A program made the translations under genes and the position numbers. Of a DNA stretch of 20,000 nucleotides, positions 1,337 through 20,000 are shown one piece after another. The stretch's first letter is position 1, and every line of letters starts with the position of its first letter. Origin of the DNA: an uncultured virus (IMG/VR IMGVR_UViG_3300025949_000021) (Duplodnaviria > Heunggongvirae > Uroviricota > Caudoviricetes). The stretch lies in the IMG/VR virus record IMGVR_UViG_3300025949_000021. One strand, given 5' to 3'. The notes beneath the pieces were generated by a model, which saw only the letters and a program-made list of their open reading frames with translations, had not been told where the DNA came from and ran no database searches.

Positions 1337-1636
1337 ATGGCTGCACCATTTACCTCTACCCCCAAACTGGGGGTTAAAACTCTTGTCACAGTTCTGGCGA
1401 CAGACATTGCTTCGGGCGCTGACAAGCCTCAACAACGTCTTGGCGATCAGATTTGGGGAAGCGACGGCAAACGTTATGTGTACGCACAAGCAAATGCCTC
1501 TATCTCTGCTTCTACAGCAGTTTGCACAATCAGCCCTACGACCTTCCTAGTAACAGCGACAGGTGGCGCGTATACTTCTCCTGCGACTGCTATGGTCACT
1601 GGCGATCAAGGTTGGTTCAGCGCAGCATCTGTTTAA
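1337..1636 (+). CDS. Putative capsid decoration/cement protein
   Basis: 99 aa, A/T/S-rich and beta-type, with the motif GSDGKRYVYAQA. AAGGA RBS; directly after the capsid gene and before the terminator. Confidence 0.6.
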   Translation: MAAPFTSTPKLGVKTLVTVLATDIASGADKPQQRLGDQIWGSDGKRYVYAQANASISASTAVCTISPTTFLVTATGGAYTSPATAMVTGDQGWFSAASV

Positions 1637-1645
1637 GGAGTCATT

Positions 1646-2032: not shown

Positions 2033-2038
2033 TTTTAT

Positions 2039-2060
2039 GCCCCTTCGGGGGCTTTTTATT
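2039..2060 (+). terminator. Rho-independent terminator after the capsid/decoration genes
   Basis: GCCCC-TTCG-GGGGC stem with a UUCG tetraloop, followed by TTTTTATT. Confidence 0.9.
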
Positions 2061-2071
2061 GGAGATATACA

Positions 2072-4068: not shown

Positions 4069-4097
4069 GGGAAATCCTAATCTGATTGAATATGATT

Positions 4098-4103
4098 ATT
4101 ATA
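4098..4103 (-). promoter_or_regulatory. Putative -10 box for the antisense HNH gene
   Basis: Perfect TATAAT on the minus strand about 30 nt upstream of the HNH start. No well-spaced -35 was found. Confidence 0.4.
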
Positions 4104-4122
4104 CAGGTAATTGGGGAAACTA

Positions 4123-5643
4123 ATGGCAACAGCATCTAAGAATCTTCCGGCTCCTGTAGGAGGTCTTAATGATAGGGATTCGTTACAAGATATGCCGCCT
4201 CAAGATGCGGTTATTCTTGAAAACTGGTTTCCTTATCCTTCCCAAGTAGGTATCCGAAAAGGCTGTACAAATTGGGCAACTGGTTTTTCTTCCACCGTAG
4301 AAACTGTTGTGGATTATGCGCCTCCGACAGGGAATATTAAGCTGTTCGCCGCTTCGGCTGGGAATATCTACGATGTAACATCCTCCGGTGCAATTGGTGC
4401 ACCTGTAGTAACAGGGCAGATTAGCAACCGCTGGCAAGATGCTGCGATTACAACGCCAGGAGGTAGTTTTCTTTACCTATTTAATGGGGTGGATAAGCCA
4501 CAGCTTTATAACGGCACAACTTGGACGGCAATTGATGGAGCAAGCACGCCTGCAATTACAGGTGTTACTACTACACTTCTTGTTCAAGGCTGTTTATTTA
4601 AAAATCGTCTTTGGATGGCGGAAACAAATGCATTACGTGCTTGGTATCTTCCGGTCAATTCGATTGGCGGTGCAGCAAACCAATTTGATCTTGGTTCGGT
4701 ATTTAGAAAAGGTGGTTTTTTAGTTGCTATTACAGCATGGACTATTGATGCAGGCGACGGCGCAGATGACCATTTGGTTTTTGTATCGTCAAATGGAGAG
4801 TTTGCTGTTTATAGCGGTACAGACCCATCAACAGCCGCGACATTTCAGCTTGTCGGTGTTTATACAATTGGCCGTCCTATCGGCCGCCGTTGCTGCACTA
4901 AATTGGCGGGCGATATCCTAGTGATGACAGAAGAAGGGTTATACCCATTAAGCAAAGGTCTCCTTTCGGCAACAATTGATAAACGAGCATCTATTACAGA
5001 CAAAATACAAAATGGCATTTCTGCTGCTGTAACTCAATACAGGAATAACTTTGGGTGGATACCACTTTTGTTCAATAATATGAATATGGTTATCCTAAAT
5101 GTACCTGCTGGCAATGGGCAGAATTTCCAATACGTACAAAATACGATTACCGGAGCATGGGCAAAATTCACAGCCTGGAATGCCACTAGCTGGCGTGATA
5201 CATCCGCAGGTTTGTATTATGGGAATCAAAATTCTGTTCAATTGGCGTGGGTAGGATCAACGGATAATAGTTCTCAGATTGTTGCTGACGCACTGCCATC
5301 GTTCCAAACCTTTGGTTCGAGCGCGCAGCGTAAATACTTCACGATGGTAAAGCCATATCTTACAACGACTGGTATCCCGTCTATTGTCTACGGACTTAAT
5401 ATTGATTACATGATTTCAGATGTGACCGGCGTATTTTCATATACAGCACCATCTGGGATGATATGGGGGCAGATGTTTTGGGGGTCTATGTTTTGGGGTG
5501 GCGGACAACGATCTTTTACAAGTTGGAAAACGGTTGGGGATTGGGCGCAATCTGCTGCTTTACGCATCAAAGTGCAAGGTAATGCAGGGGACGTTTATTG
5601 GCAGGCTACTGATTATCTTTATCAGAAGGGCGGGATTCTTTAA
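4123..5643 (+). CDS. Tail hub / packaged-DNA stabilisation protein (P22 gp10-like)
   Basis: About 506 aa from the ATG at 4123 (the ORF track starts at TTG 4111). It begins with LPAPVGGLNDRDS...DAVILENWFP, has a W/G/Y-rich beta-propeller-like composition, and lies after the adaptor. Confidence 0.75.
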   Translation: MATASKNLPAPVGGLNDRDSLQDMPPQDAVILENWFPYPSQVGIRKGCTNWATGFSSTVETVVDYAPPTGNIKLFAASAGNIYDVTSSGAIGAPVVTGQISNRWQDAAITTPGGSFLYLFNGVDKPQLYNGTTWTAIDGASTPAITGVTTTLLVQGCLFKNRLWMAETNALRAWYLPVNSIGGAANQFDLGSVFRKGGFLVAITAWTIDAGDGADDHLVFVSSNGEFAVYSGTDPSTAATFQLVGVYTIGRPIGRRCCTKLAGDILVMTEEGLYPLSKGLLSATIDKRASITDKIQNGISAAVTQYRNNFGWIPLLFNNMNMVILNVPAGNGQNFQYVQNTITGAWAKFTAWNATSWRDTSAGLYYGNQNSVQLAWVGSTDNSSQIVADALPSFQTFGSSAQRKYFTMVKPYLTTTGIPSIVYGLNIDYMISDVTGVFSYTAPSGMIWGQMFWGSMFWGGGQRSFTSWKTVGDWAQSAALRIKVQGNAGDVYWQATDYLYQKGGIL

Positions 5644-6056
5644 TGGTTGTCATAGAACAGCATCCAGCTTTCTACGAGTTCATTAATCATATTTTAAAAG
5701 TAAAATTCACCCCCGAAAACGCAAAAGTTATCGCATCTGTAACACAAGATTGTCAGATAATGGGAGTGACAGCATTTTCACGGTTTTCTGAACATAATTG
5801 TGAATTGAGCGTTGCAAGTTCAACGCCTAGATTCATGACTAAAGAGTATTTACGAGCTGTATTTCATTATCCGTTCATAACGTGCGGTAAGCGAAGAATC
5901 ACGGCAATTATTGAAGATGACAATCATCGTGCACAAGAAATTGATAAGCGGTTAGGTTTTGTCTATGAGGCTACATTGAAGAATTGGTATGGCGAAAAAG
6001 ACGGAATTGTTATGCGCATGTTGAATGATGAATGTACTTGGATCAAGGATAAATAA
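5643..6056 (+). CDS. GNAT-family acetyltransferase-like protein (P22 gp14 position)
   Basis: 137 aa with a RimJ/RimL-like pattern (FHYPF...RRITAII..DNHRAQ....RLGFVYEATLKNWY). Coupled to both neighbours by TAATG overlaps. Confidence 0.75.
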   Translation: MVVIEQHPAFYEFINHILKVKFTPENAKVIASVTQDCQIMGVTAFSRFSEHNCELSVASSTPRFMTKEYLRAVFHYPFITCGKRRITAIIEDDNHRAQEIDKRLGFVYEATLKNWYGEKDGIVMRMLNDECTWIKDK

Positions 6057-6916
6057 TGCGATTGCTTAATCGAGACGGATACGACGCTACAGGCCGTCGC
6101 TTATATTACAAAGATGCGCCAGATCCTGCGCCTGCTCCTGATTATAAAGGTGCTGCTGAGCAAACTGCTCAAGGCAATATTGAGGCAGCTCGTGCAGCGG
6201 CAAAAGCGAACCGCGTAAACACATATACACCCTACGGCAGTATTACTTATAACCAACCTAATTCTGCTGATCCTGATCAATGGAATGCTAACGTAACTCT
6301 TGATCCTACCCAGCAAAAATTACTTGACCAGCAAAATCTGACAAGCTTGAATTTAGCTGGTCTACAAAACTCCGCATATGGCCGCGTCAATGATGCATTG
6401 AATGCCCCATATGCAGCGACATATGATCCGACTAAGGCAACCAATACAGCGTATGAATCGCTGATGACTCGCCTAAATCCTCAGTATGAGCAACAGCAAT
6501 CACAATTGGATCAGCGCTTGGCAAATCAAGGTATTACTCTAGGCTCTGAAGCATGGCGTAATGCTCAAAATCAGTTCGGTCAAACTCGTAATGATGCGCA
6601 AACGCAAGCAGCTTTGCAGGCGATCAACCTTGGAATGCAACAACAGCAACAGCAATACGGCCAAGAATCGACTAATCGCAATAATCCATTGAATGAATTG
6701 AATGCAATTCGAACAGGATCGCAGGTTACAAACCCATCGCAGATTAATGTTGCTCAACAAGGCCAAACCGCAGGGGCTAACTATCTTGGGGCTGCACAAG
6801 GACAGGCCGGTTACGATCAAAGCATTTACAACGCTGGTGTAGGTAGCGCAAATGCAGGGAACTCGGCAACGGCTGGCTTGGCTGGTGCAGCGATCGGCGC
6901 GGCGGCTTTGTTCTGA
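6056..6916 (+). CDS. Putative DNA ejection/pilot protein 1 (P22 gp7 position)
   Basis: 286 aa, Q/N/A-rich and helical, with a PAPAPDY motif and NRVNTYTPYGS. The C-terminus is hydrophobic and G/A-rich (AGLAGAAIGAAALF). Confidence 0.7.
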   Translation: MRLLNRDGYDATGRRLYYKDAPDPAPAPDYKGAAEQTAQGNIEAARAAAKANRVNTYTPYGSITYNQPNSADPDQWNANVTLDPTQQKLLDQQNLTSLNLAGLQNSAYGRVNDALNAPYAATYDPTKATNTAYESLMTRLNPQYEQQQSQLDQRLANQGITLGSEAWRNAQNQFGQTRNDAQTQAALQAINLGMQQQQQQYGQESTNRNNPLNELNAIRTGSQVTNPSQINVAQQGQTAGANYLGAAQGQAGYDQSIYNAGVGSANAGNSATAGLAGAAIGAAALF

Positions 6917-7560
6917 TGGACATTGATTTGATTGATGCTTTAACCCCAGCAATGGTTAATGCAGGACATAGGGTGCTACAAATTCACCGGTTTGCATCAT
7001 CAGATGTTGAGCATGTAAGACGCTTGGAAAGATGGGCAGATTTCCCGTTAAATTCGAATGTAATTGATATGGGTAGTGGTACTGGAGAGGTTGCCAGGAT
7101 ACTAGGAAGAAAACGGCCTGACTTGTTTTTCACTTTGGTTAACCTAAGCGAGGTTCAATTACGATATTCTCCAAAAAACTGCAAATGGATTCATGGCGAC
7201 TTTCTAAATGTTGATGAAAAAAACGGCGTCTTTGATGCAGTTATGTTTTGCTTCTCCATTGGTCACGAAGACCACGAAGCCGCATTGAAAGAAGCCTGCC
7301 GATTACTTAAAGTTGGTGGCGTTTTGTTTGTATATGACATGGTGAGAGTAAGCGGCTCTAATGAATCAATGGCTTCTGTTGAATACACGGTTCTTTCTAG
7401 AGGTGAATTTGAATCTATCGCAGTCGATAATGGATTCAAACTTGATCTTTACATTGAGCCAAAAGATTGCGGAGAATATGGAAAATCTGTTTTAGGAGAT
7501 GCATTTGAAGAAGTTTTCAATGGGACAATTCCTGCTATTTGGAGAATGATTAAATGCTAA
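6916..7560 (+). CDS. Class I SAM-dependent methyltransferase
   Basis: Motif I VIDMGSGTG, then IHGDF, FDAVMFCFSIGH and the post-motif RLLKVGGVLFVYD. TGATG overlap with the upstream gene. Confidence 0.88.
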   Translation: MDIDLIDALTPAMVNAGHRVLQIHRFASSDVEHVRRLERWADFPLNSNVIDMGSGTGEVARILGRKRPDLFFTLVNLSEVQLRYSPKNCKWIHGDFLNVDEKNGVFDAVMFCFSIGHEDHEAALKEACRLLKVGGVLFVYDMVRVSGSNESMASVEYTVLSRGEFESIAVDNGFKLDLYIEPKDCGEYGKSVLGDAFEEVFNGTIPAIWRMIKC

Positions 7561-8249
7561 AGAAGGCATTGCAATTCTCAGGTGGGAAAGACTCCCTGGC
7601 ATGCTTGTATTTGCTAAAGCCAATATGGGATGAGTTACTAGTGGTTTGGGGAAATACAGGCTCGGCCTATCCTGAAACAATCAAACTCATGGATAAAGTG
7701 AGATCATTGGTCCCGCACTTCTTGGAAGTAAAAAGCAATCAACCGGATTACATAGCTAACTACGGTTTCCCTTCTGATATTTTGACAATTCGAAATACGA
7801 ATTTCGGTCATATAGTACATGGTACGGGGGGTCGTAAATTCACTGATTATCTATCCTGCTGCAATGCAAATATCTGGCAACCACTTGCCAAAGCATGTGA
7901 GGGGATGGAAGTAATTTACCGTGGTCAACGTCTTGAGGATGAAAAGAAAAGTCCCGTGAGAAGTGGGGATGTTATCAATGGTATTGAGTACATTTTCCCT
8001 ATAGAAAACTGGTCAACAGCGCAAGTTAAAGAATATCTCGGTGAAAAACTTCCTGAGTACTATTCGCAAGAGAAATCATCGCATGATTGCTGGAATTGCA
8101 CAGCATATTTAGATGATAATCTTGAGCGAATTTCCAAACTTCCTAATGAAAAAAAAGAGTATGTCGAATCAGTGTTGATCGACATGCGCGATGCGATTAA
8201 ACAAGACTTAAACCAATTGGATGAGGTAATAAATGGCATTCACTACTAA
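7554..8249 (+). CDS. PAPS/APS-reductase-like PP-loop protein with probable Fe-S cluster (non-canonical)
   Basis: PP-loop FSGGKDS, NTGSAYPET, CC(NANIWQPL), GQRLED, FPIENW and C-terminal DCWNCT. The terminal ECG(L/I)H motif of true CysH is absent. Confidence 0.85.
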   Translation: MLKKALQFSGGKDSLACLYLLKPIWDELLVVWGNTGSAYPETIKLMDKVRSLVPHFLEVKSNQPDYIANYGFPSDILTIRNTNFGHIVHGTGGRKFTDYLSCCNANIWQPLAKACEGMEVIYRGQRLEDEKKSPVRSGDVINGIEYIFPIENWSTAQVKEYLGEKLPEYYSQEKSSHDCWNCTAYLDDNLERISKLPNEKKEYVESVLIDMRDAIKQDLNQLDEVINGIHY

Positions 8250-9615
8250 TACCGCAAATTTTGGGTCTGGTGATATCGCAACGGAACAAGCACAGCTAAC
8301 CCGACAACAGCAACTTGCTCAGGCTTTAGCGCAACAAGCACAAGCTCCATTGCAGTCTCAGCCGACGCCGCCTGGAGGCTATGCAATACCAATTGGTAAA
8401 GGTGAAGTCTGGGGGAAGATTGGACAAGCATTGGCATCGGCCTATGCAACAAAAGCAACCGCTGATAAAGAAAAAGATTTTAATCAGAATAAACAGGCAA
8501 AAATTGCCGAGGCGCTTGGGAACTATGACAAATTGCGTACAGGTACACCGGAACAAGATGTCAATATTTACGGCACAGATCCAAATCAGCCAACACAAGG
8601 AACAATGCCAGCAGTCGCGCCGAATCCTCGCGGAGCATCATTGGGGTTAATCAGTTCTGGGGTTCCTGAGTTGCAACAGTTCGGCATGCAATCTTTCTTG
8701 GCGCAAAAGGGCCCAGAATCCTTATTCGATAAAATTGCTCCTAAAGATTACACGCCTCAAAGTGTGCAGAAATTTGTTCAAACCCAAAATCCAGCGGATC
8801 TTGTGGCTGTCAGAAAGCAAGAATTCCTTAATACTGGTGGTGGTCACGTCGCCGTAGACCCTTATGCTTCGACGCCTGGGCAAGTTATTCAAAATACAGG
8901 AAGCCCCGCTAAAGACCTTCTTATTCAAGATGCTCAAGGGAATTGGGTCGCGAATACTCCATTGGTTGCGGTTAAGAAGGATATCGCAAAGTCTGGCGCT
9001 ACAAATGTCCAAGTTAAGACCGATGTGAAAACTGGAGAAAGTCTTGCATCACAAGTTGGTCCAATGATGAAAGAATCTACTTTGGCGGCTGAGGGCGCAG
9101 TAAAACAAGCACAGGCAGCAGACCAGATTTTAGGTGCGTTGAGTGGCCCCGCCTACACTGGTCCGGGCGCGAATGTTCGCCTTAAAGGCGCGCAAATTGC
9201 AGACACACTTGGCGTTGGTGGAAAGGATACAGCCGAGAAGATTGCCAACACTCGGACTGCATTGCAAAATCTTTCGCAATTGACTTTGCAAGGCCGTCAA
9301 CAGATGCGAGGCCAAGGAGCTATCACAGAAGGCGAAAGCGCACTTGCTCAACGCGCGGTATCGGGCGATATTGATTTGACTGCTAACGAAATCAAGCAAT
9401 TGGCGAATGCGGCTAAACGTGCAGCAGCATTCCAATATCAAGAACATCAGCGTAAGTTGCAGGTCATGCAGAACAATCCTAACTTGAGTGGAATCGCGCC
9501 GTTTTATCAAGGCCCCGCCATGCAAGATTCCGCGCCAGCACAACAGCCTGTACAAGCACCGCAAGCACCTGCAAAACGTCTTGTTTATGACCCAGCCACA
9601 GGGAGTTTCCGCTAA
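8233..9615 (+). CDS. Putative DNA ejection protein 2 (P22 gp20 position)
   Basis: 460 aa, Q/A-rich and helical, ending KRLVYDPATGSFR. GAGGT RBS; lies between pilot-like genes. Confidence 0.65.
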   Translation: MAFTTNTANFGSGDIATEQAQLTRQQQLAQALAQQAQAPLQSQPTPPGGYAIPIGKGEVWGKIGQALASAYATKATADKEKDFNQNKQAKIAEALGNYDKLRTGTPEQDVNIYGTDPNQPTQGTMPAVAPNPRGASLGLISSGVPELQQFGMQSFLAQKGPESLFDKIAPKDYTPQSVQKFVQTQNPADLVAVRKQEFLNTGGGHVAVDPYASTPGQVIQNTGSPAKDLLIQDAQGNWVANTPLVAVKKDIAKSGATNVQVKTDVKTGESLASQVGPMMKESTLAAEGAVKQAQAADQILGALSGPAYTGPGANVRLKGAQIADTLGVGGKDTAEKIANTRTALQNLSQLTLQGRQQMRGQGAITEGESALAQRAVSGDIDLTANEIKQLANAAKRAAAFQYQEHQRKLQVMQNNPNLSGIAPFYQGPAMQDSAPAQQPVQAPQAPAKRLVYDPATGSFR

Positions 9616-11474
9616 TGGCCCAACAAGTTGAAGTTCCTGGCGTAGGAGTTCTTGAATTCCCAGACAATATGCCTCAAGAGGCTATTGCATCTGCTATTCA
9701 AAAGAACTTTCCTCAAATCCATAATCAGCCACAACAACAAGAAGTTCCGCGCTCTAATGAAATGGGGCCGTCTCTTGACATTGGTGCGCTTGGCCCATTG
9801 CAGGCACAGCAGCCGCCTCAGCAAGCGCCACAGCCTCAGGCGCAACAGGGCGATGCCAGTTTCGGGAATAGGTTCGCTACTGGTCTTACAGATCCTATTC
9901 ACGGTGGTGCGCAAGCATTGACGCACATGCTGCCAGAAGGATTGGTAAATGCGGTAAATCGCGGTACTCAAGCAGTAAATGATGCGCCTATTATCGGCCC
10001 TATCACTAAAGCGTTAGGAATGACTCCTGCCAATTCTGCGCAGATTGATGCAGGAATTCAACAGCGTGAACAAGCGTTGCAAGAAGCTAGGCAAGCTGCA
10101 ATGCCAAATACGCTTACAAGCACCATTACTGGACAAAAAGAAAAGCCGGGTATTGATTGGGCGCGGATGGCTGGTAATGTACTTTCTACATTACCAGTTG
10201 GAGCAGGAATCCCGCAAGGCGCTTCACTTCTTCCTAGAATGCTTTCTGGCGCTGTTAGCGGCACACTGGGAAGTGCAGTAATGCCGGTGACAGAAGGTAA
10301 CTATGCAGATGAAAAAACGCGCCAAATGGCTTTATCTGCGGCATTGGGGTCTGTGGCTGCACCTGTAACAAATGCAGTTGCAAGTGTAATCAAGCCGAAT
10401 ACATCGCCGGAAGTAAAATCCTTGATGGCACAAGGCATAACTCCTACTCCAGGCCAAATTTTAGGTGGTGCAGCAGCCAGGACAGAAGATAAGCTAACCA
10501 GCTTGCCATTGATTGGCGACATGATTTCAGGTGCACAGCGTCGAGGCATAGAAGATTTCAACCGCGCAGCATATGCAAGGGCGTTAGATCCTATTGGTGC
10601 AGCAGTGCCGAAGGAAGTTGGTCGTGAAGGCATTGAGGGCGTGAAGTCTGCTCTTACAAAATCTTATGACGATTTGCTTCCAAAATTGCAATTCAAGGCA
10701 GACACACAATTTTCGACTGAATTACAAAACTTGAATAGCTTGGTTAAAAATGCCCAAACTAATCCTCAAGTTGCGCAGCAATTCAACAAAGTTTTGCAGA
10801 ATGATGTCCTAAGCAGAATTAGTAAATCTGGCGCAATGGATGGCCGTAATTTTAAAGACATGGAATCCGCCTTGGGACAAAGTATTAAGAAATATGCTGG
10901 TAGCTCGAATCCAGCTGATCAAGATATTGCCGCTGCGCTTGGTGAAGTATTGAAATCGGCACGCGAAACACTGTCTAGGTCAAATCCTAATTATGCTGAC
11001 CAATTAAGCAAAATCAATCAAGGATATGCGAACTTTGTTCGCCTGCGATATGCTGCGAGCAAGGTTGGCGCAGATGAAGGTATTTTCACTCCTGCTCAAC
11101 TTCAAAATGCTGTACGCAGTATGGATAAGTCTGCTGGCAAAGGCCGTTTTGCAACTGGCGATGCATTAATGCAGGATCTCAGCGAAGCAGGAAAAACCGT
11201 ATTGGGAAGTAAATACCCTGATTCTGGGACTGCTGGCCGTTCAATGGTTGGAGCAGGGGCAGCGGGAGGATTAGCAATGATCAACCCGAAATTGCTAGCG
11301 GCCGCATTGGCGGCAACCCTTCCTTATACAAAAGCAGGTGGAAAGGTAACCGCTGCTGTTTTAACAAAACGTCCGGAAAGCTTCAAAGCACTTTCTGATG
11401 CATTACGTGCTAGTGCTCCTGCGATTGCGGGTAGTCTTCCATTGGCGATAGGAACGCAAAACCAGTCTCCATAG
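9615..11474 (+). CDS. Putative DNA ejection protein 3 (P22 gp16 position)
   Basis: 619 aa starting VEVPGVGVLEFPDNMPQEAI, with Gly/Ala-rich amphipathic or hydrophobic segments. TAATG coupling to the upstream gene; precedes the tail fibre. Confidence 0.65.
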   Translation: MAQQVEVPGVGVLEFPDNMPQEAIASAIQKNFPQIHNQPQQQEVPRSNEMGPSLDIGALGPLQAQQPPQQAPQPQAQQGDASFGNRFATGLTDPIHGGAQALTHMLPEGLVNAVNRGTQAVNDAPIIGPITKALGMTPANSAQIDAGIQQREQALQEARQAAMPNTLTSTITGQKEKPGIDWARMAGNVLSTLPVGAGIPQGASLLPRMLSGAVSGTLGSAVMPVTEGNYADEKTRQMALSAALGSVAAPVTNAVASVIKPNTSPEVKSLMAQGITPTPGQILGGAAARTEDKLTSLPLIGDMISGAQRRGIEDFNRAAYARALDPIGAAVPKEVGREGIEGVKSALTKSYDDLLPKLQFKADTQFSTELQNLNSLVKNAQTNPQVAQQFNKVLQNDVLSRISKSGAMDGRNFKDMESALGQSIKKYAGSSNPADQDIAAALGEVLKSARETLSRSNPNYADQLSKINQGYANFVRLRYAASKVGADEGIFTPAQLQNAVRSMDKSAGKGRFATGDALMQDLSEAGKTVLGSKYPDSGTAGRSMVGAGAAGGLAMINPKLLAAALAATLPYTKAGGKVTAAVLTKRPESFKALSDALRASAPAIAGSLPLAIGTQNQSP

Positions 11475-11534
11475 GTAGGGCGCGACAACCATTGTAATTG
11501 CGACGGCAATCAGTCGTGCATATTGATCAGACAT
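11403..11534 (-). CDS. Unannotated 43-aa antisense single-pass membrane peptide (candidate superinfection-exclusion factor)
   Basis: Hand translation gives MSDQYARLIAVAITMVVAPYLWRLVLRSYRQWKTTRNRRSTST*. AAAGAGGT lies just upstream of the ATG. A hydrophobic helix is followed by a basic tail. Confidence 0.5.
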   Translation of the reverse strand: MSDQYARLIAVAITMVVAPYLWRLVLRSYRQWKTTRNRRSTST

Positions 11535-11555
11535 ATAACCTCTTTGGAGTAAATA

Positions 11556-12914
11556 ATGGCCCGTAATGGATCAGGAACGTATACAAGCCCAGTTAATTCA
11601 TGGAATCCACAAGTCAATGGTGCGCTTGCTACCGCTCCTGATTTTAACGCTCAATTAGTTGATATTGCTAATGCTCTTACACAAAGTGTATCGGCAGATG
11701 GACAAACGCCAATTACTGGCAATATCAATATGAATGGTAACAAGCTTACCAATCTTGCGCCAGGTGCGAATTCTGGGGATTCTTTACGCTGGCAGCAATT
11801 GTTCAGTCAAGGTATCGAGCAAGATATTGCATCTGCTGCTACGACGGACATTGGCATACAAAACACCAGTTTTCTACGAGTAACTGGGACAACAAGTATT
11901 ACAAGTTTTGGCACAAATTATAACGGCCCACGATATTTGCGATTTAGCGGAATTCTCACGCTTACCTATAATTCCACTACACTGCTTACGCCTGGTTCAT
12001 TAAACATTACAACTGCGCCTGGTGATATCTGCATTGTTACCCCTAAATCGACGGTTTCCGGTACGTCTGATGGATGGCAGGTTCTAGCCTATCAGCAAGC
12101 ATCCACAACGATTGGCTCTCAAATACAGTCTCAGTTGTTTACTGCTTTTACCACAGCAGGAACATCTACAGCTTACACGCTGACGCCAACTCCCGCTATT
12201 ACTGCATTGGCTCCAAATCAAAGATTGCGGGTCAAATTTAATGCTGCAAATACGACCTCTACACCGACCTTAAATGTATCAGCATTAGGCGCGATTGCGA
12301 TTAAATTGGTAGATAGTAATGGAACAAAGATTGACCCGCCAATTGGTATTTTCGCCAATAACAGTTTTTTTGATTTTGAATATGACGGCACAAACTGGGT
12401 TTGCTTATTCGGGACACCTAGCGTAAAAGCAACTCAAATTCAACTTAGCGCCGTAATACCTACTACCTCGGGAACCTCTATTGATTTTATTGGCATTGGC
12501 GCATGGGCAAAAAGAGTAACGATAAACTTTAATGGCGTATCCACCAATGGAACGAATACATTTGCCTTGCAAATGGGGACTTCTGGCGGAATTCAAACAA
12601 ATGCATATTCAAATGTACGTACAATTACCAATACAACAGGGTCTGCTACTGCGGCATCCTCAACTGGTTATTTTGAAATAGCCGGTCCATCATCTGCTGC
12701 ATCTTCTTGTACAGGGCAGGCAATACTCACTTTGCTAGATGCAACAAATGGTATTTGGGTACTATCATCTCAATTAGGCGATGTTCCAAATACTCGGTTT
12801 TATCAATGTGCTGGAAGTAAGCCGCTATCTGGCATTTTAGACAGGATCAGGCTTACAACATCGACTGGCACAGATACGTTTGATGCTGGATCAATCAACG
12901 TCACTTATGAATAA
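11556..12914 (+). CDS. Tail fibre / receptor-binding protein
   Basis: 452 aa with GGAG RBS. N-terminal anchor MARNGSGTY...DIANALTQSVSADGQTPITGNINMNGNKLTNLA, followed by T/S/G-rich beta modules. Confidence 0.8.
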   Translation: MARNGSGTYTSPVNSWNPQVNGALATAPDFNAQLVDIANALTQSVSADGQTPITGNINMNGNKLTNLAPGANSGDSLRWQQLFSQGIEQDIASAATTDIGIQNTSFLRVTGTTSITSFGTNYNGPRYLRFSGILTLTYNSTTLLTPGSLNITTAPGDICIVTPKSTVSGTSDGWQVLAYQQASTTIGSQIQSQLFTAFTTAGTSTAYTLTPTPAITALAPNQRLRVKFNAANTTSTPTLNVSALGAIAIKLVDSNGTKIDPPIGIFANNSFFDFEYDGTNWVCLFGTPSVKATQIQLSAVIPTTSGTSIDFIGIGAWAKRVTINFNGVSTNGTNTFALQMGTSGGIQTNAYSNVRTITNTTGSATAASSTGYFEIAGPSSAASSCTGQAILTLLDATNGIWVLSSQLGDVPNTRFYQCAGSKPLSGILDRIRLTTSTGTDTFDAGSINVTYE

Positions 12915-12926
12915 TTAGGGGATTAC

Positions 12927-13295
12927 ATGTCCTACGAAGCAGGGGTGTTAGGCCTGATAAAGGCCTATGGCTTTAAAGCCGTTTGTGGGGCAATAGGAGT
13001 TTCTATGCTTTACTTAGCTTTGCCACCTTTAAACAAAGATGGCACATTTAACCGTAAAGAGTTCATCTGTCGCATGGCTGCTGCGATTATCTTTTCAACG
13101 TGGCTTGGAGATTGGTTTGTATCAGTTGTAGATGGCGTTCTTCCAATGGTGAAAGCACATGAGTTCCCTGGTGTTTTCTATGCATTCATCGGCGCGCCAG
13201 CATGGTTTATTACGCGAGGGATAGCCGTCTGGATGCATAATAGACAAGATAAAGATATTGGTGAAGTCATCAAAGACGCGAAGGACATTGTATGA
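12927..13295 (+). CDS. Putative holin
   Basis: 122 aa with 2-3 hydrophobic segments and a charged C-terminus. First gene of the lysis cassette. Confidence 0.65.
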   Translation: MSYEAGVLGLIKAYGFKAVCGAIGVSMLYLALPPLNKDGTFNRKEFICRMAAAIIFSTWLGDWFVSVVDGVLPMVKAHEFPGVFYAFIGAPAWFITRGIAVWMHNRQDKDIGEVIKDAKDIV

Positions 13296-13690
13296 AATTA
13301 GTCTTGCAGCGCCAAAAAAGTTCCGACAAATCCACTCTTGGCACGATCTACATTGACGGAAAGTTCGAGTGTTACACATTAGAGGATGTTGAGCGCCCCG
13401 AGAAGATCAAAGGTGAGACGGCTATCCCCGCTGGAACTTACAAAGTCATCCTTACGCAATCTCCACGATTTGGCTGCATCCTTCCTCTTCTAGTTGACGT
13501 GCCAAACTATGAAGGTATCCGTATTCATCCTGGTAACACGGATAAAGATACAGATGGTTGTATTCTTCCGGGCCAATCTCAAGGAAAGGATTTCGTAGGT
13601 AATAGCCGTCTTGCATTCGATGCTCTATTTGCTAAACTGCAATCAGCGAAAAATCCGATTACGATTGAGATTAGGAGTGCAAATGCTTGA
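13292..13690 (+). CDS. DUF5675-family protein, putative endolysin
   Basis: Motifs TLG..YIDG..CYTLED, TAIPAGTY, SPRFG..LPLL.DVP and IRIHPGNT..DTDGCILPG. It sits between the holin and the spanins. Confidence 0.8.
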   Translation: MKLVLQRQKSSDKSTLGTIYIDGKFECYTLEDVERPEKIKGETAIPAGTYKVILTQSPRFGCILPLLVDVPNYEGIRIHPGNTDKDTDGCILPGQSQGKDFVGNSRLAFDALFAKLQSAKNPITIEIRSANA

Positions 13691-14150
13691 TCTGCCAACC
13701 AAGATTGCAATCTTCCTCGGAGGTCTTTTAATAGCGATTGCAGGCGTTTATTTCTACGGTAGCCATCAATACTCAAAAGGGTTTGACCAAGCCAATCTAG
13801 AGGCCACCGCACGCGCAGAAAAGGTATCAGAGGAATACAGGAAGAAAGAGCAAGATTGGAGCACTCAAGCAAAGCAAAAGGATGATGCATATGACCAAGC
13901 AAAAGCGAACACGCAATCTGCCGTTGTTACTCTTACCAGTTCTAATATCAGCTTGCACAACGCAATTGCCGATTACAAGCGTCGATTGTCCCAAGCCTCC
14001 ACAAGTCCCAACGGAACTAGCGACAAAGGAGAAGTCGGGATCGACCTATTTGCAGAATGCTCAGACAAATACAGCGAGTTGGCAAAAGAAACTGCAAGAC
14101 TCGCTGACAAAGTGAATGCTCAGGCTGACTACCTAGTCATAGGCCGATAA
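13683..14150 (+). CDS. Rz: Inner-membrane spanin (i-spanin)
   Basis: ATG at 13683 with an AGGAG RBS. N-terminal TM segment (IAIFLGGLLIAIAGVYFYG), then a coiled coil and a C-terminal Cys. Confidence 0.8.
   Translation: MLDLPTKIAIFLGGLLIAIAGVYFYGSHQYSKGFDQANLEATARAEKVSEEYRKKEQDWSTQAKQKDDAYDQAKANTQSAVVTLTSSNISLHNAIADYKRRLSQASTSPNGTSDKGEVGIDLFAECSDKYSELAKETARLADKVNAQADYLVIGR
13882..14115 (+). CDS. Rz1: Outer-membrane lipoprotein spanin (o-spanin), fully embedded in Rz
   Basis: In the +1 frame inside Rz. Basic N-terminus, hydrophobic stretch, lipobox LISA-C and Pro-rich CPKPPQVP. The exact start Met is uncertain. Confidence 0.8.
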   Translation: MMHMTKQKRTRNLPLLLLPVLISACTTQLPITSVDCPKPPQVPTELATKEKSGSTYLQNAQTNTASWQKKLQDSLTK

Positions 14151-14217
14151 ACTTCTTACGCATTCTACGATCATGCAAGCGCATTGAAACGATAAGTTTG
14201 CGTAATAGTTTTAGCAT
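14137..14217 (-). CDS. Possible 26-aa basic peptide
   Basis: Hand translation gives MLKLLRKLIVSMRLHDRRMRKKFIGL*. The RBS is weak, and the ORF overlaps the 3' end of Rz. Confidence 0.25.
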   Translation of the reverse strand: MLKLLRKLIVSMRLHDRRMRKKFIGL

Positions 14218-14292: not shown

Positions 14293-14502
14293 TTAATAGC
14301 TCTCTTCAATTTGAATTGCACGCTGCAAACTAACTAACGCCTCTTGCAAATCTTCTGCTTTAGTCTTATGCCCGCGCTGTCCTGGCTGCAAAAGCTTTTT
14401 AATAGCATGTTGGATAGCTGGGTTTGTTACGTTCCATGCTGTCAAAACATCATAAACATCAATTGTTGTTGATGGCACAAGTCGCTGATATTTATTTGTC
14501 AC
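14293..14502 (-). CDS. Small conserved phage protein (DUF3310/SaV-like)
   Basis: Motif IDVYDVL...NPAIQHAIKKLL.PGQRGHK...DLQEA..SL.RA. GTGA overlap with the upstream gene. Confidence 0.65.
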   Translation of the reverse strand: MTNKYQRLVPSTTIDVYDVLTAWNVTNPAIQHAIKKLLQPGQRGHKTKAEDLQEALVSLQRAIQIEESY

Positions 14503-14774
14503 TTGACTATCCCTTTGCTGGCAGTAGCAGCGGTGATGCCGTGAGCCCGTTCGATGGCGCGGGCGAATAGGTGTAGTCGAATATCCATGCTTCCAGCATC
14601 AGGCTGGTAAAAATCTTGTTCGGCAATATCCTGAATCACTGACTCGCTCAGCGGCTCCCGCTTCACGCTGGCAATGGCGAGTTCGGCGTAGGCGCGCATT
14701 TGGTCTGCTGTGTAGGCCCAGCGAACGTTGTCAACGTCTTCTGGCTCTGGCAGCTTAGGTAATTTATCCATCAC
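14499..14774 (-). CDS. Hypothetical phage protein
   Basis: 91 aa with common phage modules LPKLPEP, YTADQMRAYA and FARAIERAHGI. Coupled by overlaps. Confidence 0.7.
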   Translation of the reverse strand: MMDKLPKLPEPEDVDNVRWAYTADQMRAYAELAIASVKREPLSESVIQDIAEQDFYQPDAGSMDIRLHLFARAIERAHGITAATASKGIVK

Positions 14775-15268
14775 TTTTCCTTCCCATGATTTTCATGGAA
14801 TCCAAATTTCTCATTTGCTAATTGTCGCGCTTGTATAGCGGCTTCTTTTGTTCTGAAATACCCTAGATGAATGCGTTTTTTATCCACGGAAATTCTTGCG
14901 TACCATCTATTAATTTCATCGCTGTAATTTATTCCATTGACGCCATATTTATTGTTGGACTGCAATGTCCTGTTTCTTAAGTTCTCAGAATTTGTAGCTT
15001 CTCTGAGATTTGAAATTCTGTTGTTGGATCGATTATGGTCAATATGATCAATGTCATGTGTGGGCCATACTTTGTATGTTAGAAGCCATGCAACTCTATG
15101 CCCTAAATATGTTTTGCCGCCGATTGAAACAGCAACATATCGCTTTGCGCTACCTTTCCCAAGTGGCCTATTCAAGGATCTTCCGACGCCAGGCTTTTTC
15201 CAAAACAAAAGGCCGCTATCAGGCTCGTATCTCAAAATTTCATTGAACTTCAAATAGTCGTCAGCCAT
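14771..15268 (-). CDS. HNH homing endonuclease with C-terminal AP2 domain
   Basis: Likely start at ATG 15268 (MADDYLKF). LRYEPDSGLLFW, HRVAW...IDHIDHNRSNNRISNLREATNSEN, and AP2-like WYARISVDKKRIHLGYF.TKEAA. Confidence 0.9.
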   Translation of the reverse strand: MADDYLKFNEILRYEPDSGLLFWKKPGVGRSLNRPLGKGSAKRYVAVSIGGKTYLGHRVAWLLTYKVWPTHDIDHIDHNRSNNRISNLREATNSENLRNRTLQSNNKYGVNGINYSDEINRWYARISVDKKRIHLGYFRTKEAAIQARQLANEKFGFHENHGKEK

Positions 15269-15845
15269 GCTTCCTAGCCTCCTTTGCTGCGATAGCCCGC
15301 AATGTCCAGCGTACCGCCTTGGTGAACGATTTGAGATTGCAAGGGCAATACGGGTTGCTGGTGCTGAATGTTTCATGCCAGCCGCGCTCGATCTCCGCAT
15401 CCTTCAGGTCGCTGTCCTTCGGCGGGGCGACATATCCGCTGTACTTGTCACCGTCATAGTCGAGAATGAAAGGCTCCTTGTCGATTTCGCCGATCAGGAA
15501 GCGCATGCTGTCGGCCTCGTAGCGCACCCGATCGGGGTATTCCGAGCGAGCGAAGGTGAAGCAGTTCGAGTCAAACAGCGCTGCGCCCTTGCGACGCAGA
15601 GTCGCCGTGAAATTCGACTTGCCGTTGCTTTCAGGCATGGAGCCGCACCAGACTTCCAACTTCACCGGCTCCGCACTTACAGGCGCTGGAGGGGCGGTGT
15701 AGAGCGTGCGGTACGTGTAGCCCTTGATTTCTTCGTTTTCGTCATCGTCTTGCGGCCTTACATCGCGCCATGTTTCGTCACCAAGCCATCTACGTTGCCT
15801 GATCGCCACCGGCTCCGCGCTGCCATTATCTTTATCCACACTCAT
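15261..15845 (-). CDS. Hypothetical mosaic early protein
   Basis: 194 aa with repeated SAEPV modules and LYTAPP. GC-rich; overlaps both neighbours. Confidence 0.7.
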   Translation of the reverse strand: MSVDKDNGSAEPVAIRQRRWLGDETWRDVRPQDDDENEEIKGYTYRTLYTAPPAPVSAEPVKLEVWCGSMPESNGKSNFTATLRRKGAALFDSNCFTFARSEYPDRVRYEADSMRFLIGEIDKEPFILDYDGDKYSGYVAPPKDSDLKDAEIERGWHETFSTSNPYCPCNLKSFTKAVRWTLRAIAAKEARKHG

Positions 15846-16374
15846 GGTTTTTCCTTGAGATCATTTGATCAATTGGTGAATTCCAATTTTTTCCATTGGC
15901 TGCTTTTTGTATTGCAGAACGACTAACGCAAAATCTCTCTTGAAATTCCTTTGCTTTATACAAGCCATTTGCACGATTTTGGTAAGCGCTACGAATTTCA
16001 TTTACTTGAGACAAAGTCAATTTTCTACAGCCATGATTTTCACCAGCGATTCCTCGCCCATGGCGTAACTTATCGGCATAATTTTCTGCCGCTGTTCCCC
16101 ATTTTAAATTTGATAAAGCATTGTTCTTACAATTGCCATCTATATGACAAGCTTCAAAATCTTCGCTTGGACGCGGCTTATCAAAAACAGTCAAAACAAG
16201 AACATGAATGAAATAATTCTTTTTTGTTGCATTTTTGCAAAGTGTTACGTAGTGATATCCGGGTGTACTTAGAGGCTGCTTCATGATCTTTTTTGAGTTT
16301 TTGACTCTACCAAGATCAGAGACACTATAATTTTCATATCCTGGGATTGGCATCCAACGTTCTTCGCTAATCAT
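15832..16374 (-). CDS. NUMOD4-HNH homing endonuclease with C-terminal HTH-like segment
   Basis: EERWMPIPGYENYSVSDLGRV and HVLVLTVF...ACHIDGNCKNNALSNLKWGTAAEN. AT-rich (17/60 GC at 16201-16260). Confidence 0.9.
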   Translation of the reverse strand: MISEERWMPIPGYENYSVSDLGRVKNSKKIMKQPLSTPGYHYVTLCKNATKKNYFIHVLVLTVFDKPRPSEDFEACHIDGNCKNNALSNLKWGTAAENYADKLRHGRGIAGENHGCRKLTLSQVNEIRSAYQNRANGLYKAKEFQERFCVSRSAIQKAANGKNWNSPIDQMISRKNHECG

Positions 16375-16830: not shown

Positions 16831-17073
16831 TTAGACCTTTGCTTTCAGCATATGATCGTTTGCACGCGATTGTGCTTCTGCAAGTTGATCAGCAAGCGAT
16901 TGGACTCGCGCATCAGACGAGCGCACCAACTCTTCATTTTCTTGCTTCAAGAACTCAATTTGGCTTTGCAGAAAGCCGATAACTTGATCTGTTTCCTTCT
17001 TCAACGAATCCGAAGGTGAGCGTTGCAGATATGCGCGAACATATCCAATTTCATCTTTATTAAACTTTTGCAT
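16831..17073 (-). CDS. Hypothetical coiled-coil protein
   Basis: 80 aa with a strong AAGGAG RBS. Confidence 0.7.
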   Translation of the reverse strand: MQKFNKDEIGYVRAYLQRSPSDSLKKETDQVIGFLQSQIEFLKQENEELVRSSDARVQSLADQLAEAQSRANDHMLKAKV

Positions 17074-17112
17074 TTTAATGGCTCCTTCAAACCAACCCTT
17101 GTTTATACAAAA

Positions 17113-17170
17113 TGGCGCGATCTGGGTGAAGGGTAGATACCAGATGTTCAGCCGCTAAGCCTAAGCGCCA
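17113..17170 (-). ncRNA. Candidate structured cis-regulatory RNA leader
   Basis: An outer stem (TGGCGC 17113-17118 / GCGCCA 17165-17170) encloses a hairpin (ATCTGG 17120-17125 / CCAGAT 17140-17145). The hairpin loop is complementary to the downstream SD region. Confidence 0.5.
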
Positions 17171-17177
17171 CAAATCT

Positions 17178-17206
17178 ATATTAGGACATTTATTTAGACC
17201 ATGCAA
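17178..17206 (-). promoter_or_regulatory. Putative sigma70 promoter
   Basis: Minus strand TTGCAT - 17 nt - TAATAT. The predicted +1 falls at the 5' edge of the structured leader. Confidence 0.5.
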
Positions 17207-17483
17207 GCGATTTCAACTCATTCTTTTGAGCAGTCAGTTCGATTATTTCTTGAGACAACGCTTCCATCGTCTCCAAACTCTTTCGAGCGTTACCGAGCAA
17301 GCCTGGAAGCGCCTCATCTACGTCATCATCCTGCGACCGCTTAAGAATCTGTTGGTTAGCATGCATCATGATTTCACATGCTCCTGACAGCTTCTTAACG
17401 CGATCTTTCAGTTCAACGTGTAGAGTTGAATACTTCCCGCGAGCGATAAATGTCTCTGTTGAGATATCGTCTAGGTTTTTCAT
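17190..17483 (-). CDS. Hypothetical helical protein
   Basis: 97 aa, ATGA-coupled to the upstream gene. Confidence 0.7.
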   Translation of the reverse strand: MKNLDDISTETFIARGKYSTLHVELKDRVKKLSGACEIMMHANQQILKRSQDDDVDEALPGLLGNARKSLETMEALSQEIIELTAQKNELKSLAWSK

Positions 17484-19872: not shown

Positions 19873-20000
19873 ACTTTGGCTTCTTGTTCAATATTTGCGC
19901 AAATACGGCGCAGTTCTTTTTCTTGAACTTCCCTCGCAGCAGCCCTCGCAGCAGCCCTCGCAGCAGCCCCCGCAGCATCCCACGCAGCAGCCCTCGCAGC
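19869..20000 (-). CDS. C-terminus of an Ala-rich repeat phage protein (truncated by the window edge)
   Basis: ...AARAAAWDAAGAAARAAARAAAREVQEKELRRICANIEQEAKV*. The stop overlaps the next ATG. Confidence 0.75.
   Translation of the reverse strand, partial: AARAAAWDAAGAAARAAARAAAREVQEKELRRICANIEQEAKV
19931..20000. repeat. 12-bp coding tandem repeat (CCCTCGCAGCAG)n
   Basis: About 6 units, two of them variant, running off the window end. They encode AAAR/AAAW/DAAG. Confidence 0.9.

What the first reader, a model, noticed from the sequence alone, without database searches (positions are those of the whole stretch)
17074..17206. Promoter-linked structured RNA leader whose loop can pseudoknot onto the Shine-Dalgarno
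Seen on the minus strand: a TTGCAT-17-TAATAT promoter places +1 at the start of a 6-bp closing stem (UGGCGC/GCGCCA). This stem encloses a short arm (UAGGCUUAGCGGCUGAAC) and a 6-bp hairpin (AUCUGG/CCAGAU). The hairpin loop contains ACCCUUCA, which can pair with either of two downstream sites: AAGGGU (17095-17100) or UGAAGG (17084-17089). The second site overlaps the AAGGAG RBS of the 80-aa gene. Inference: two mutually exclusive pairings suggest a translational switch (riboswitch-like, protein-responsive or antisense-responsive) controlling the downstream early genes.
Basis: partly seen in the sequence, partly recalled or inferred. Interest (0 to 1): 0.7.

Follow-up and report, generated by a model that had tools for sequence, protein, structure and literature searches.

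The report
Conserved Y-shaped phage mRNA leader
A small group of uncultured soil phages carries a conserved three-stem RNA fold at the predicted start of one early transcript; it is real and undescribed, but its proposed role as a translational switch is unproven.

Summary
On the minus strand, a TTGCAT-17-TAATAT promoter-like site puts +1 at G17171. That base is the first of a 7-bp closing stem (P1). P1 encloses a 4-bp arm (P2) and a 6-bp hairpin (P3) with a 14-nt pyrimidine-rich loop.

The window is a fragment of an uncultured phage. Two related phage genomes each carry one copy. All three fold to the same Y shape, and 8 of 17 pairs change on both sides while staying paired. G-U pairs and the opposite-strand folds favour an RNA read from the minus strand. 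No Rfam family, tRNA or tmRNA matches.

The element is rare. Only these 3 IMG/VR contigs carry it, and contigs from three soil-type sequencing runs overlap parts of it. No copy turned up in the bacterial genomes scanned.

The switch idea is unproven. The loop–SD pairing never varies. The loop–AAGGR pairing shows one compensatory change. Shuffled loops pair about as well as the real one. Junction bases vary, which argues against a ligand pocket.

Best reading: a cis-acting 5' leader that displays an anti-SD-like loop. It is moderately interesting and a new variant of a known kind.

The parts
17201..17206 (-). -35-like hexamer TTGCAT, inside the 3' end of the upstream 97-aa gene
   Evidence: TTG lies 17 nt upstream of the -10 in all three copies. 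This includes the G003 copy, where the upstream gene is a different one (SSB) and sequence similarity to the window only begins at 17184.
17178..17183 (-). -10-like hexamer TAATAT (TAAGAT in both relatives)
   Evidence: It is a weak consensus match and was not listed by the promoter scan. The pattern occurs once in the window against 1.43 expected.
17171..17171 (-). Predicted transcription start (+1), 7 nt after the -10; first base of P1
   Evidence: Inferred from promoter geometry. No RNA data.
17165..17171 (-). P1, 5' strand: GUGGCGC
   Evidence: Pairs with 17112-17118. All 7 of 7 pairs are invariant in the 3 sequences. It is in the MFE structure of all three.
17150..17162 (-). P2 arm: 4 bp (17159-17162 with 17150-17153, one G-G mismatch in the window) and loop UUAGC (17154-17158)
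   Evidence: 4 of 4 pairs change on both sides, but the count depends on the alignment. UUAGC is present in all three copies.
17120..17145 (-). P3 hairpin: AUCUGG (17140-17145) with CCAGAU (17120-17125), and a 14-nt pyrimidine-rich loop (17126-17139) holding the conserved CCUUC
   Evidence: 4 of 6 pairs change on both sides and 100% of cells are paired. The loops have no G; 11, 14 and 13 of their 14 bases are pyrimidines.
17112..17118 (-). P1, 3' strand: GCGCCAU
   Evidence: It is followed by UUUUGU in the window, UUCUUG in L014 and GUCAGU in L013.
17095..17100 (-). Site 1: SD-like box AAGGGU, complementary to loop ACCCUU
   Evidence: 5 bp are possible in 3 of 3 sequences. One pair is compensatory: G-C becomes A-U in L014. 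The energy is no better than with shuffled loops.
17082..17089 (-). Site 2: UGAAGGAG, containing the Shine-Dalgarno AAGGAG
   Evidence: GAAGG with CCUUC is invariant in 3 of 3. There are 8 nt between the SD and the ATG.
16831..17073 (-). 80-aa gene (p80) served by the leader; predicted coiled-coil protein of unknown function
   Evidence: No Pfam hit. One weak PHROG hit. Only 8 proteins in the large protein collection, the window's own included.
17190..17483 (-). Upstream 97-aa gene; its stop codon (17190-17192) lies 18 nt before P1
   Evidence: No Pfam or PHROG family.

Best explanation
The element is a real, conserved, strand-specific RNA structure in the only large gap of the phage's leftward early gene block. 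It most likely forms the 5' leader of an mRNA that starts at about G17171 from a weak sigma-70-type promoter.

The leader folds into a Y shape. P1 (7 bp) involves the very 5' end. P2 (4 bp) carries a UUAGC loop. P3 (6 bp) displays a 14-nt, G-free, pyrimidine-rich loop whose CCUUC core resembles the ribosomal anti-Shine-Dalgarno sequence.

Proposed mechanism (inferred, not shown): the scaffold acts in cis on the first gene downstream. That gene is p80, or a homing-endonuclease gene inserted at this spot in one relative. The displayed loop pairs with purine-rich SD-like boxes in the same leader. One box is AAGGR, just upstream of the SD; pairing there would give a pseudoknot next to the ribosome-binding site. 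The other is the SD itself. This pairing would set the rate of translation initiation, and the paired 5' end would slow decay.

Shown: the fold, its conservation and covariation, its strand, its position, and its rarity. Inferred: the start site, any loop–SD contact, and any regulatory effect.
For: Structure:
- The same Y shape is the MFE structure of all three copies (z -1.30, -2.21, -2.74; ensemble frequency 0.26, 0.67, 0.54).
- 17 pairs are 98% paired. 8 show changes on both sides: P3 4 of 6, P2 4 of 4. None of 500 shuffles reached the covariation score, and slid controls gave 0-2 such pairs.

Strand:
- G-U pairs occur in P1 and P2.
- The opposite strand gives three different folds with low ensemble frequencies of 0.10-0.19.

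Not coding:
- The TTG-started frame that is open in the window hits TAG at its fourth codon in L013.
- The copies differ by 1-nt indels.

Position:
- It is the only intergenic gap over 50 nt between 14293 and 19322 on the minus strand.
- There is one copy per genome in 3 of 3 records, two of them 99-100% complete.

Promoter:
- TTGnnn-17-TAAnAT is kept in all three copies. In G003 the upstream gene is a different one and similarity to the window starts only at 17184.

Module behaviour:
- In G002 an HNH endonuclease gene sits exactly between the leader's SD/ATG and p80, and uses the leader's SD.

Loop:
- It has no G in any of the three copies and keeps CCUUC. A partial fourth variant from run X2 also reads pyrimidines only over the part shown.
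- 5 bp to AAGGR are possible in 3 of 3, with one compensatory G-C to A-U change. 5 bp to GAAGG of the SD are possible in 3 of 3.

Background:
- Pyrimidine-rich anti-SD-like sequences pair with the RBS over long range and repress translation in Bacillus subtilis (PMC12697547, abstract read).
- A loop-to-RBS-flank pseudoknot is essential for RepZ translation in IncI1 and IncB/O plasmids (PMC8053102, passages read).
Against: - Only three full sequences exist, about 82% alike. P1 never varies, so covariation says nothing about it.
- The P2 counts depend on a MAFFT register that puts the window's UUAGC one column off. The window's P2 has a G-G mismatch.
- Loop–downstream duplexes are no stronger than with shuffled loops: 27%, 87% and 15% of shuffles do as well or better. 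The complementarity therefore follows from composition alone.
- The loop–SD pairing is invariant and so untested.
- In nested-structure ensembles the SD is mostly unpaired in the window and L013 (0.69 and 0.68).
- The promoter is a weak match. The scan did not call it, and its pattern is expected 1.43 times per window by chance.
- The whole 105-nt leader has z -0.19.
- No transcript data were available.
Confidence: 0.45

Rival explanations
1. Passive 5' stabiliser or insulator. The Y structure only buries the mRNA's 5' end, and separates the downstream cistron structurally from upstream transcripts, so the mRNA resists 5'-end-dependent decay. The loop's complementarity to the SD is incidental.
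For: - P1 begins at the predicted +1, so the 5' end would be paired.
- P1 is the most conserved part (7 of 7 invariant pairs).
- Loop pairing is no better than with shuffled loops.
- That 5'-terminal stem-loops protect E. coli mRNAs such as ompA from RNase E is recalled knowledge, not checked here.
Against: - A stabiliser needs only a terminal hairpin. It does not explain a conserved three-helix scaffold, a conserved UUAGC loop, or a 14-nt loop kept free of G across variants.
Confidence: 0.2
2. Protein-binding operator. The scaffold presents the UUAGC and pyrimidine loops to a protein. Candidates are ribosomal protein S1 (translation enhancer or standby site), the product p80 itself (autoregulation), or another phage early protein.
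For: - Loops are conserved while stems covary, and junction bases vary. This is the pattern expected when loops are the recognition elements.
- The leader and p80 occur together in 3 of 3 contigs.
- S1's preference for pyrimidine-rich single strands is recalled knowledge.
Against: - p80 has no recognisable RNA-binding domain (no Pfam hit; atlas neighbours are unnamed or coiled-coil proteins).
- In G002 the leader directly serves an HNH gene rather than p80.
- No direct evidence of any binding.
Confidence: 0.15
3. Attenuator, terminator or separate small RNA. P1 plus the following U-run stops transcription. That would either end the upstream operon or release a roughly 60-nt RNA whose anti-SD-like loop acts in trans on other mRNAs.
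For: - P1 (5 G-C pairs) is followed by UUUUGU in the window and UUCUUG in L014.
- An exposed C/U-rich loop is the kind used by some small RNAs to target SD sequences (recalled).
Against: - L013 and the X2 variant have GUCAG after P1, with no U-run.
- The terminator scan did not list it.
- The SD and ATG follow within about 40 nt and belong to the same conserved block.
Confidence: 0.1
4. Metabolite-sensing riboswitch whose three-way junction binds a ligand and releases or sequesters the SD.
For: - Three-way-junction architecture with possible alternative pairings to two purine boxes.
Against: - Junction nucleotides differ among three close relatives: the second base of J1/2 is U, A or C; J2/3 is GAAC, GAAA or UAAA; J3/1 is C, GC or AC.
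- No Rfam match.
- Known from only 3 contigs, upstream of genes of unknown function or an HNH gene.
Confidence: 0.03
5. No RNA function: a DNA-level inverted-repeat site or chance structure in a spacer.
For: - The window alone is not significant.
- The sequences are closely related, so part of the covariation signal could reflect shared ancestry.
Against: - There are five or more independent double changes that keep pairing in P3 alone.
- G-U pairs would be A-C mismatches on the other strand or in DNA.
- The fold is the same only on the transcribed strand.
Confidence: 0.07

Closest known systems
Activator pseudoknot in the repZ/repA leader of IncI-alpha (ColIb-P9) and IncB plasmids
   Same: A hairpin loop in the leader is complementary to a short stretch just 5' of the ribosome-binding site of the regulated gene. 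In those plasmids this pseudoknot is essential for translation (PMC8053102, passages). Here the P3 loop can pair with AAGGR 6-8 nt upstream of the SD in 3 of 3 copies, with one compensatory change.
   Different: The scan listed no promoter-like site on the opposite strand within the element. There is no conserved leader peptide ORF. The sequence and overall fold are different, the context is a phage early operon rather than plasmid replication control, and the pairing is unproven.
Anti-SD-like pyrimidine sequences that repress translation by long-range pairing with the RBS
   Same: The loop is G-free and pyrimidine-rich, with a CCUUC/CUCCUU core resembling the 16S CCUCC motif (motif as named in the abstract of PMC6288834, listing). 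Such sequences pair with the RBS and inhibit initiation (PMC12697547, abstract).
   Different: Those are mostly incidental or engineered sequences that are selected against. Here the sequence is conserved and displayed in a hairpin loop on a covarying scaffold. The effect on expression is untested.
Three-way-junction riboswitch aptamers (purine-riboswitch type) and SD-sequestering pseudoknot riboswitches (SAM-II, preQ1-II)
   Same: A P1 stem closes two hairpins, and a downstream SD could be captured by a loop.
   Different: No Rfam hit at or near threshold. The one SAM-II match (17.8 bits against a gathering score of 44, E 0.62) lies upstream at 17171-17229 and was not seen in the other two copies. 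Junction bases are not conserved. P2 is only 4 bp, and I read no loop-loop complementarity off the sequences.
5'-terminal stem-loop mRNA stabilisers (ompA-type; recalled)
   Same: The predicted 5' end is base-paired from nucleotide +1.
   Different: The structure is more elaborate than a stabiliser needs, and its loops are conserved.

Membership tests
Any Rfam 15 family | Covariance-model score at or above the family's gathering threshold | tested here: not met
   0 matches at gathering score in the whole window. E-value scans of the three copies gave no hit over the element in the window and no family shared between copies.
tRNA / tmRNA | Cloverleaf or tmRNA detected by ARAGORN | tested here: not met
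   0 genes in the window.
Sigma-70-type promoter | -35 and -10 hexamers near consensus with 16-18 nt spacing | tested here: inconclusive
   TTGCAT-17-TAATAT matches 7 of 12 consensus positions by my count and is below the scan's cut-off. Its pattern is expected 1.43 times per window. TTG-17-TAAnAT is nevertheless kept in 3 of 3 copies, one of them with a different upstream gene.
Sigma-70-type promoter | Mapped transcription start | not testable with these tools
   No run listed as RNA holds the stretch.
Intrinsic (Rho-independent) terminator | G+C-rich stem directly followed by a U-run, conserved among copies | tested here: not met
   Not listed by the scan. The U-run is present in the window and partly in L014, and absent in L013.
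Metabolite riboswitch | Conserved ligand-binding core (junction and loop nucleotides invariant) | tested here: not met
   Bases of all three junctions vary among three sequences that are about 82% identical.
Metabolite riboswitch | Recurs upstream of functionally related genes across many genomes | tested here: not met
   Found in 3 IMG/VR contigs only. 0 of 20 pattern hits in genome contigs scored above 18.2 bits. The downstream genes are of unknown function or an HNH endonuclease.
repZ-type activator pseudoknot with antisense control | Loop complementary to the stretch just 5' of the RBS | tested here: inconclusive
   5 bp are possible in 3 of 3 copies, with 1 compensatory pair. The energy is not better than with shuffled loops.
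repZ-type activator pseudoknot with antisense control | Antisense RNA gene opposite the leader, and a leader peptide coupled to the main ORF | tested here: not met
   No promoter-like site on the plus strand within the element (a consensus scan only). No conserved leader ORF: TAG at codon 4 in L013, and 1-nt indels between copies.
Conserved structured RNA (generic criterion) | Compensatory base changes that keep helices, on one strand only | tested here: met
   8 of 17 pairs have changes on both sides and 98% of cells are paired; 0 of 500 shuffles reached this. The MFE fold is common to the sense strand only.

The most novel reading that the evidence does not exclude
The Y-shaped leader is a true switch. 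A trans factor (a phage or host protein, a small RNA, or a ligand) decides whether the anti-SD-like loop pairs with the decoy box AAGGR, leaving the SD free, or with the SD itself, closing it. That would time expression of the p80 operon during infection. It would be a new class of phage riboregulator with a displayed ribosome-mimicking loop.
Probability: 0.12. Interest if true: 0.7.

Novelty: new variant of a known kind. Interest (0 to 1): 0.4.

Why it matters
Very few structured cis-regulatory RNAs are known from phages, and almost none from uncultured soil phages. This one is small (about 60 nt) and sharply defined. It sits at a predicted transcript start and travels as a module with its promoter and ribosome-binding site. 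A homing endonuclease gene has even inserted behind it and uses its SD.

If the displayed anti-SD-like loop does control initiation, it would be a compact natural example of loop-mediated RBS control and could be reused as a genetic part. If it does not, it remains a well-supported new RNA motif whose function can be tested with simple reporter constructs.

Its rarity (3 contigs) limits both the statistical support and the general importance.

Tried and rejected
Known families:
- Rfam at gathering score found nothing. Permissive E-value scans of all three copies found nothing consistent.
- ARAGORN found no tRNA or tmRNA.

Cultured phages:
- blastn of 901 nt and tblastn of p80 and p97 against 50,697 phage records gave no match.
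- Sak4 and capsid searches found only distant cultured relatives: Acidovorax phage AP1 at 68%, and Bradyrhizobium phage ppBjS10J-1 at 55%. Downstream of Sak4, the AP1 gene table (mostly hypothetical proteins, then an integrase) shows no counterpart of this gene order.

Searches for more copies:
- Endonuclease-VII-anchored loci: 8 loci, no element, and no p80 or p97.
- Sak4-anchored loci: 79 of the 80 returned were searched (783,919 bases), leaving out L037, the window's own contig. There were 0 model hits at E <= 10.
- Strict DNA pattern in IMG/VR: 12 loci. 3 are the element; 9 show no resemblance beyond the enforced letters.
- Pattern requiring P1 only: 35 loci, 3 of them the element. The other 32 scored at most 25.7 bits, against 82.6-89.6 for the true copies. 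I inspected 11 of the 32 by eye and none has the Y shape or the loop.
- Loop-based pattern without P1: the same 3 loci.
- Genome contigs by p80 profile: 0. By DNA pattern: 20 loci, best 18.2 bits, not inspected by eye.
- Metagenome contigs by p80 profile: 1 locus, whose contig starts 5 nt before the p80 start, so it has no leader.
- The large protein search found 8 p80 proteins, the window's own included.

Sequencing runs:
- 11 runs were listed and no RNA holder was listed.
- Contigs of 4 runs were laid on the stretch. They gave partial variants only, and 54 differences were not shown.

Other:
- No other copy in the window (10 further hits at or below 9.5 bits) or in the two near-complete genomes.
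- The local SD hairpin predicted in the window and L013 is broken in L014, in 3 of its 6 pairs. I rejected it as a conserved feature.
- A leader peptide was rejected (TAG at codon 4 in L013).
- An RNase III site was rejected by inference: no helix approaches 20 bp.
- Counting pyrimidine runs across the three genomes did not show the loop to be unusual in composition.
- The L014 figure for SD accessibility refers to the first GAAGGA (site 1), not the SD, and is not used.
- Earlier notes of this scan: nothing on record.

Full report
**Context.** The window is a fragment of an uncultured tailed phage.
- It is 100% identical over the region to a 19.7-kb IMG/VR contig.
- The plus strand carries head, tail and lysis genes.
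- The minus strand from about 20000 down to 14293 carries early genes. In order they are: Sak4-like annealing protein, SSB, an endonuclease-VII-like protein, a 97-aa protein, the element, an 80-aa protein (p80), a 153-aa protein, and two free-standing HNH endonucleases among small unknown genes.
- The closest cultured relatives are distant: capsid 55% to Bradyrhizobium phage ppBjS10J-1 and 50% to Myxococcus phage Mx8; Sak4 68% to Acidovorax phage AP1.
- The 116-nt gap at 17074-17189 is the only intergenic gap over 50 nt between 14293 and 19322 on this strand.

**The observation.**
- TTGCAT (17206-17201), a 17-nt spacer, then TAATAT (17183-17178).
- Standard geometry puts +1 at G17171, the first base of the closing stem P1 (17171-17165 with 17118-17112; 7 pairs including a terminal G-U).
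- P1 encloses P2 (17162-17159 with 17153-17150, loop UUAGC) and P3 (17145-17140 with 17125-17120).
- The 14-nt loop of P3 (17139-17126) reads UAUCUACCCUUCAC.
- Downstream lie AAGGGU (17100-17095), UGAAGGAG (17089-17082, with the SD) and the ATG (17073-17071).

**The window alone is not convincing.**
- The 105-nt leader folds no better than shuffles (z -0.19). The 62-nt core gives z -1.30.
- The promoter is a weak consensus match and was not listed by the scan. Its pattern is expected 1.43 times per window.

**Relatives.** p80 and p97 searches in IMG/VR found two more phage contigs, G002 (37 kb, 99% complete) and G003 (38 kb, 100% complete).
- G003 shares 85-88% identical structural genes with the window but has a mosaic early region. 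G002 shares only early and lysis segments.
- Each has exactly one copy of the element (82.6-89.6 bits with a covariance model built from the three). The window has no second copy.
- In G003 the gene upstream is an SSB rather than p97, and nucleotide similarity to the window begins only at 17184, just before the -10. A TTG still sits 17 nt upstream of TAAGAT there.
- In G002 an HNH endonuclease gene lies exactly between the leader's SD/ATG and p80, and uses the leader's SD.
- So promoter, leader and SD behave as one module.

**Structure.**
- All three cores fold on their own into the same Y shape as their MFE structure (z -1.30, -2.21, -2.74; ensemble frequencies 0.26, 0.67, 0.54).
- On the alignment, 17 pairs are 98% paired. 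8 have changes on both sides: P3 4 of 6, P2 4 of 4.
- None of 500 column shuffles reached the observed covariation score. Sliding the partners by 1-3 columns gave 29-52% pairing and 0-2 such pairs.
- P1 is invariant (7 of 7), so covariation is silent about it.
- The P2 counts depend on the alignment register, and the window's P2 has one G-G mismatch.
- G-U pairs in P1 and P2 point to an RNA read from the minus strand. So do the opposite-strand folds, which differ among the copies and have low ensemble frequencies (0.10-0.19).
- The region is not coding. The only frame open in the window stops at codon 4 in L013, and the copies differ by 1-nt indels.

**The loop and the proposed pseudoknots.**
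- The P3 loops are UAUCUACCCUUCAC, UCUCUCCCCUUCUC and UUCCUCUCCUUCAC. None has a G; 11, 14 and 13 of 14 bases are pyrimidines; all share CCUUC.
- A partial fourth variant, seen as the loose end of a contig in run X2, also reads pyrimidines only over the part shown.
- The loop can pair with AAGGR (site 1) over 5 bp in 3 of 3 copies, with one compensatory G-C to A-U change in G002.
- It can pair with GAAGG of the SD over 5 bp in 3 of 3 copies, all invariant.
- These duplexes are no stronger than expected from composition. 27%, 87% and 15% of shuffled loops do as well or better, as do 13%, 33% and 1.5% of random genomic 14-mers.
- In nested-structure ensembles the SD is mostly unpaired in the window and L013 (0.69 and 0.68).
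- The small SD hairpin predicted in two copies is broken in the third.
- So the two alternative pairings exist on paper, but no result here shows that either forms.

**What it is not.**
- No Rfam family matches at gathering score, and none consistently at permissive E-values in the three copies.
- It is not a tRNA or tmRNA.
- It is not a conserved intrinsic terminator. The U-run after P1 is absent in L013 and in the X2 variant, and the scan did not call it.
- A metabolite riboswitch is unlikely. The bases of all three junctions vary among these close relatives. The element is known from three contigs, upstream of genes of unknown function or a homing endonuclease.
- The scan listed no promoter-like site on the plus strand within the element that could drive an antisense RNA.

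**Distribution.**
- Three DNA patterns, one of them without any P1 constraint, recovered only the same three IMG/VR contigs: 3 of 12, 3 of 35 and 3 of 3 loci.
- 79 Sak4-anchored related phage loci gave no model hit.
- Bacterial and archaeal genomes gave none by p80 profile or by pattern (20 loci, best 18.2 bits).
- The JGI metagenome scan gave one p80 locus that lacks the upstream region.
- The p80 family has 8 members among 5.8 billion clustered proteins, the window's own included.
- Contigs from three further soil or plant-associated runs overlap parts of the element.

**Most likely mechanism.** I read the element as the 5' leader of a transcript that starts at P1.
- *Shown:* a conserved, covarying, strand-specific Y-shaped fold that travels with a promoter-like site and an SD.
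- *Inferred:* the start site, and that the scaffold displays an anti-SD-like loop acting in cis on initiation at the first downstream gene, while the paired 5' end slows decay.
- Two bodies of knowledge make this plausible. Pyrimidine-rich anti-SD-like sequences pair with the RBS over long range and repress translation (PMC12697547, abstract only). In IncI1 and IncB/O plasmids a pseudoknot in the repZ leader is essential for RepZ translation (PMC8053102, passages). That it joins a hairpin loop to the stretch just 5' of the RBS, and the cited primary papers, are recalled and were not read.
- The single compensatory change favours the site-1 pseudoknot slightly over direct SD capture, but one pair among three sequences is weak evidence.
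- Rivals, with my weights: passive 5' stabiliser (0.2), protein-binding operator for S1, p80 or another protein (0.15), attenuator or small RNA (0.1), no RNA function (0.07), metabolite riboswitch (0.03).

**Verdict.**
- It is a new RNA motif of a familiar kind, restricted to a very small phage group.
- Interest is moderate (0.4). The bold reading, a trans-controlled switch with a ribosome-mimicking loop, keeps about 12% probability.

Noticed in passing
L012:15-509 and L014:1908-2040 (G002); window 15832-16374, 14771-15400 and 3538-4068 (all minus strand): Presence and absence of free-standing HNH homing-endonuclease genes differs between relatives. G002 has one inserted exactly between the leader's SD/ATG and p80, and both ORFs begin with ATGCAAA. 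G003 has an HNH gene upstream of its SSB. The window has three HNH genes, one of them antisense inside the structural module.
   Followed up: partly
window 14293-15845 (minus strand): The 69-aa ORF (14293-14502) matches only the C-terminal quarter of longer PHROG families (for example positions 150-217 of the 235-position phrog_2452, and an 'ATPase' family). An HNH gene (14771-15400) lies just upstream. This may be a gene split or truncated by endonuclease insertion, or an intron; Rfam found no group I intron.
   Followed up: no
window 19919-20000: A 12-nt tandem repeat (CCCTCGCAGCAG-like, at least 5 overlapping copies) runs to the window's end inside a minus-strand ORF. It is probably an in-frame peptide repeat.
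   Followed up: no
window 6916-7560 and 7554-8249: Two adjacent ORFs each match different halves of a phosphoadenosine-phosphosulfate-reductase-like PHROG (phrog_424). They lie within the virion and tail gene block. This could be a split or two-subunit enzyme, possibly for DNA modification.
   Followed up: no
window 14169-14188 and 17197-17216: A 20-nt direct repeat at 80% identity includes the -35 region CGCTTGCATG. Its second copy lies in the gap between the convergent lysis and early operons. I read no -10 at the right spacing there.
   Followed up: partly
window 17243-17282 (minus strand): A sub-threshold Rfam hit to a plastid group II intron domain hairpin (26.7 bits against a gathering score of 43, E 0.0079) lies inside the p97 coding region. 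It is most likely a chance hairpin.
   Followed up: no
window 16899-17108, run X2: A run labelled with a single organism (coded 'organism A') holds a 2029-nt contig at depth 55 with p80 and an L013-like copy of the element. If it comes from a culture, it could allow experiments.
   Followed up: no
window 1-14136 compared with G003: Structural and lysis genes are 85-91% identical to G003, while the early region is a patchwork of short shared segments. This is strong modular mosaicism, with one junction at 17184, just upstream of the -10.
   Followed up: partly
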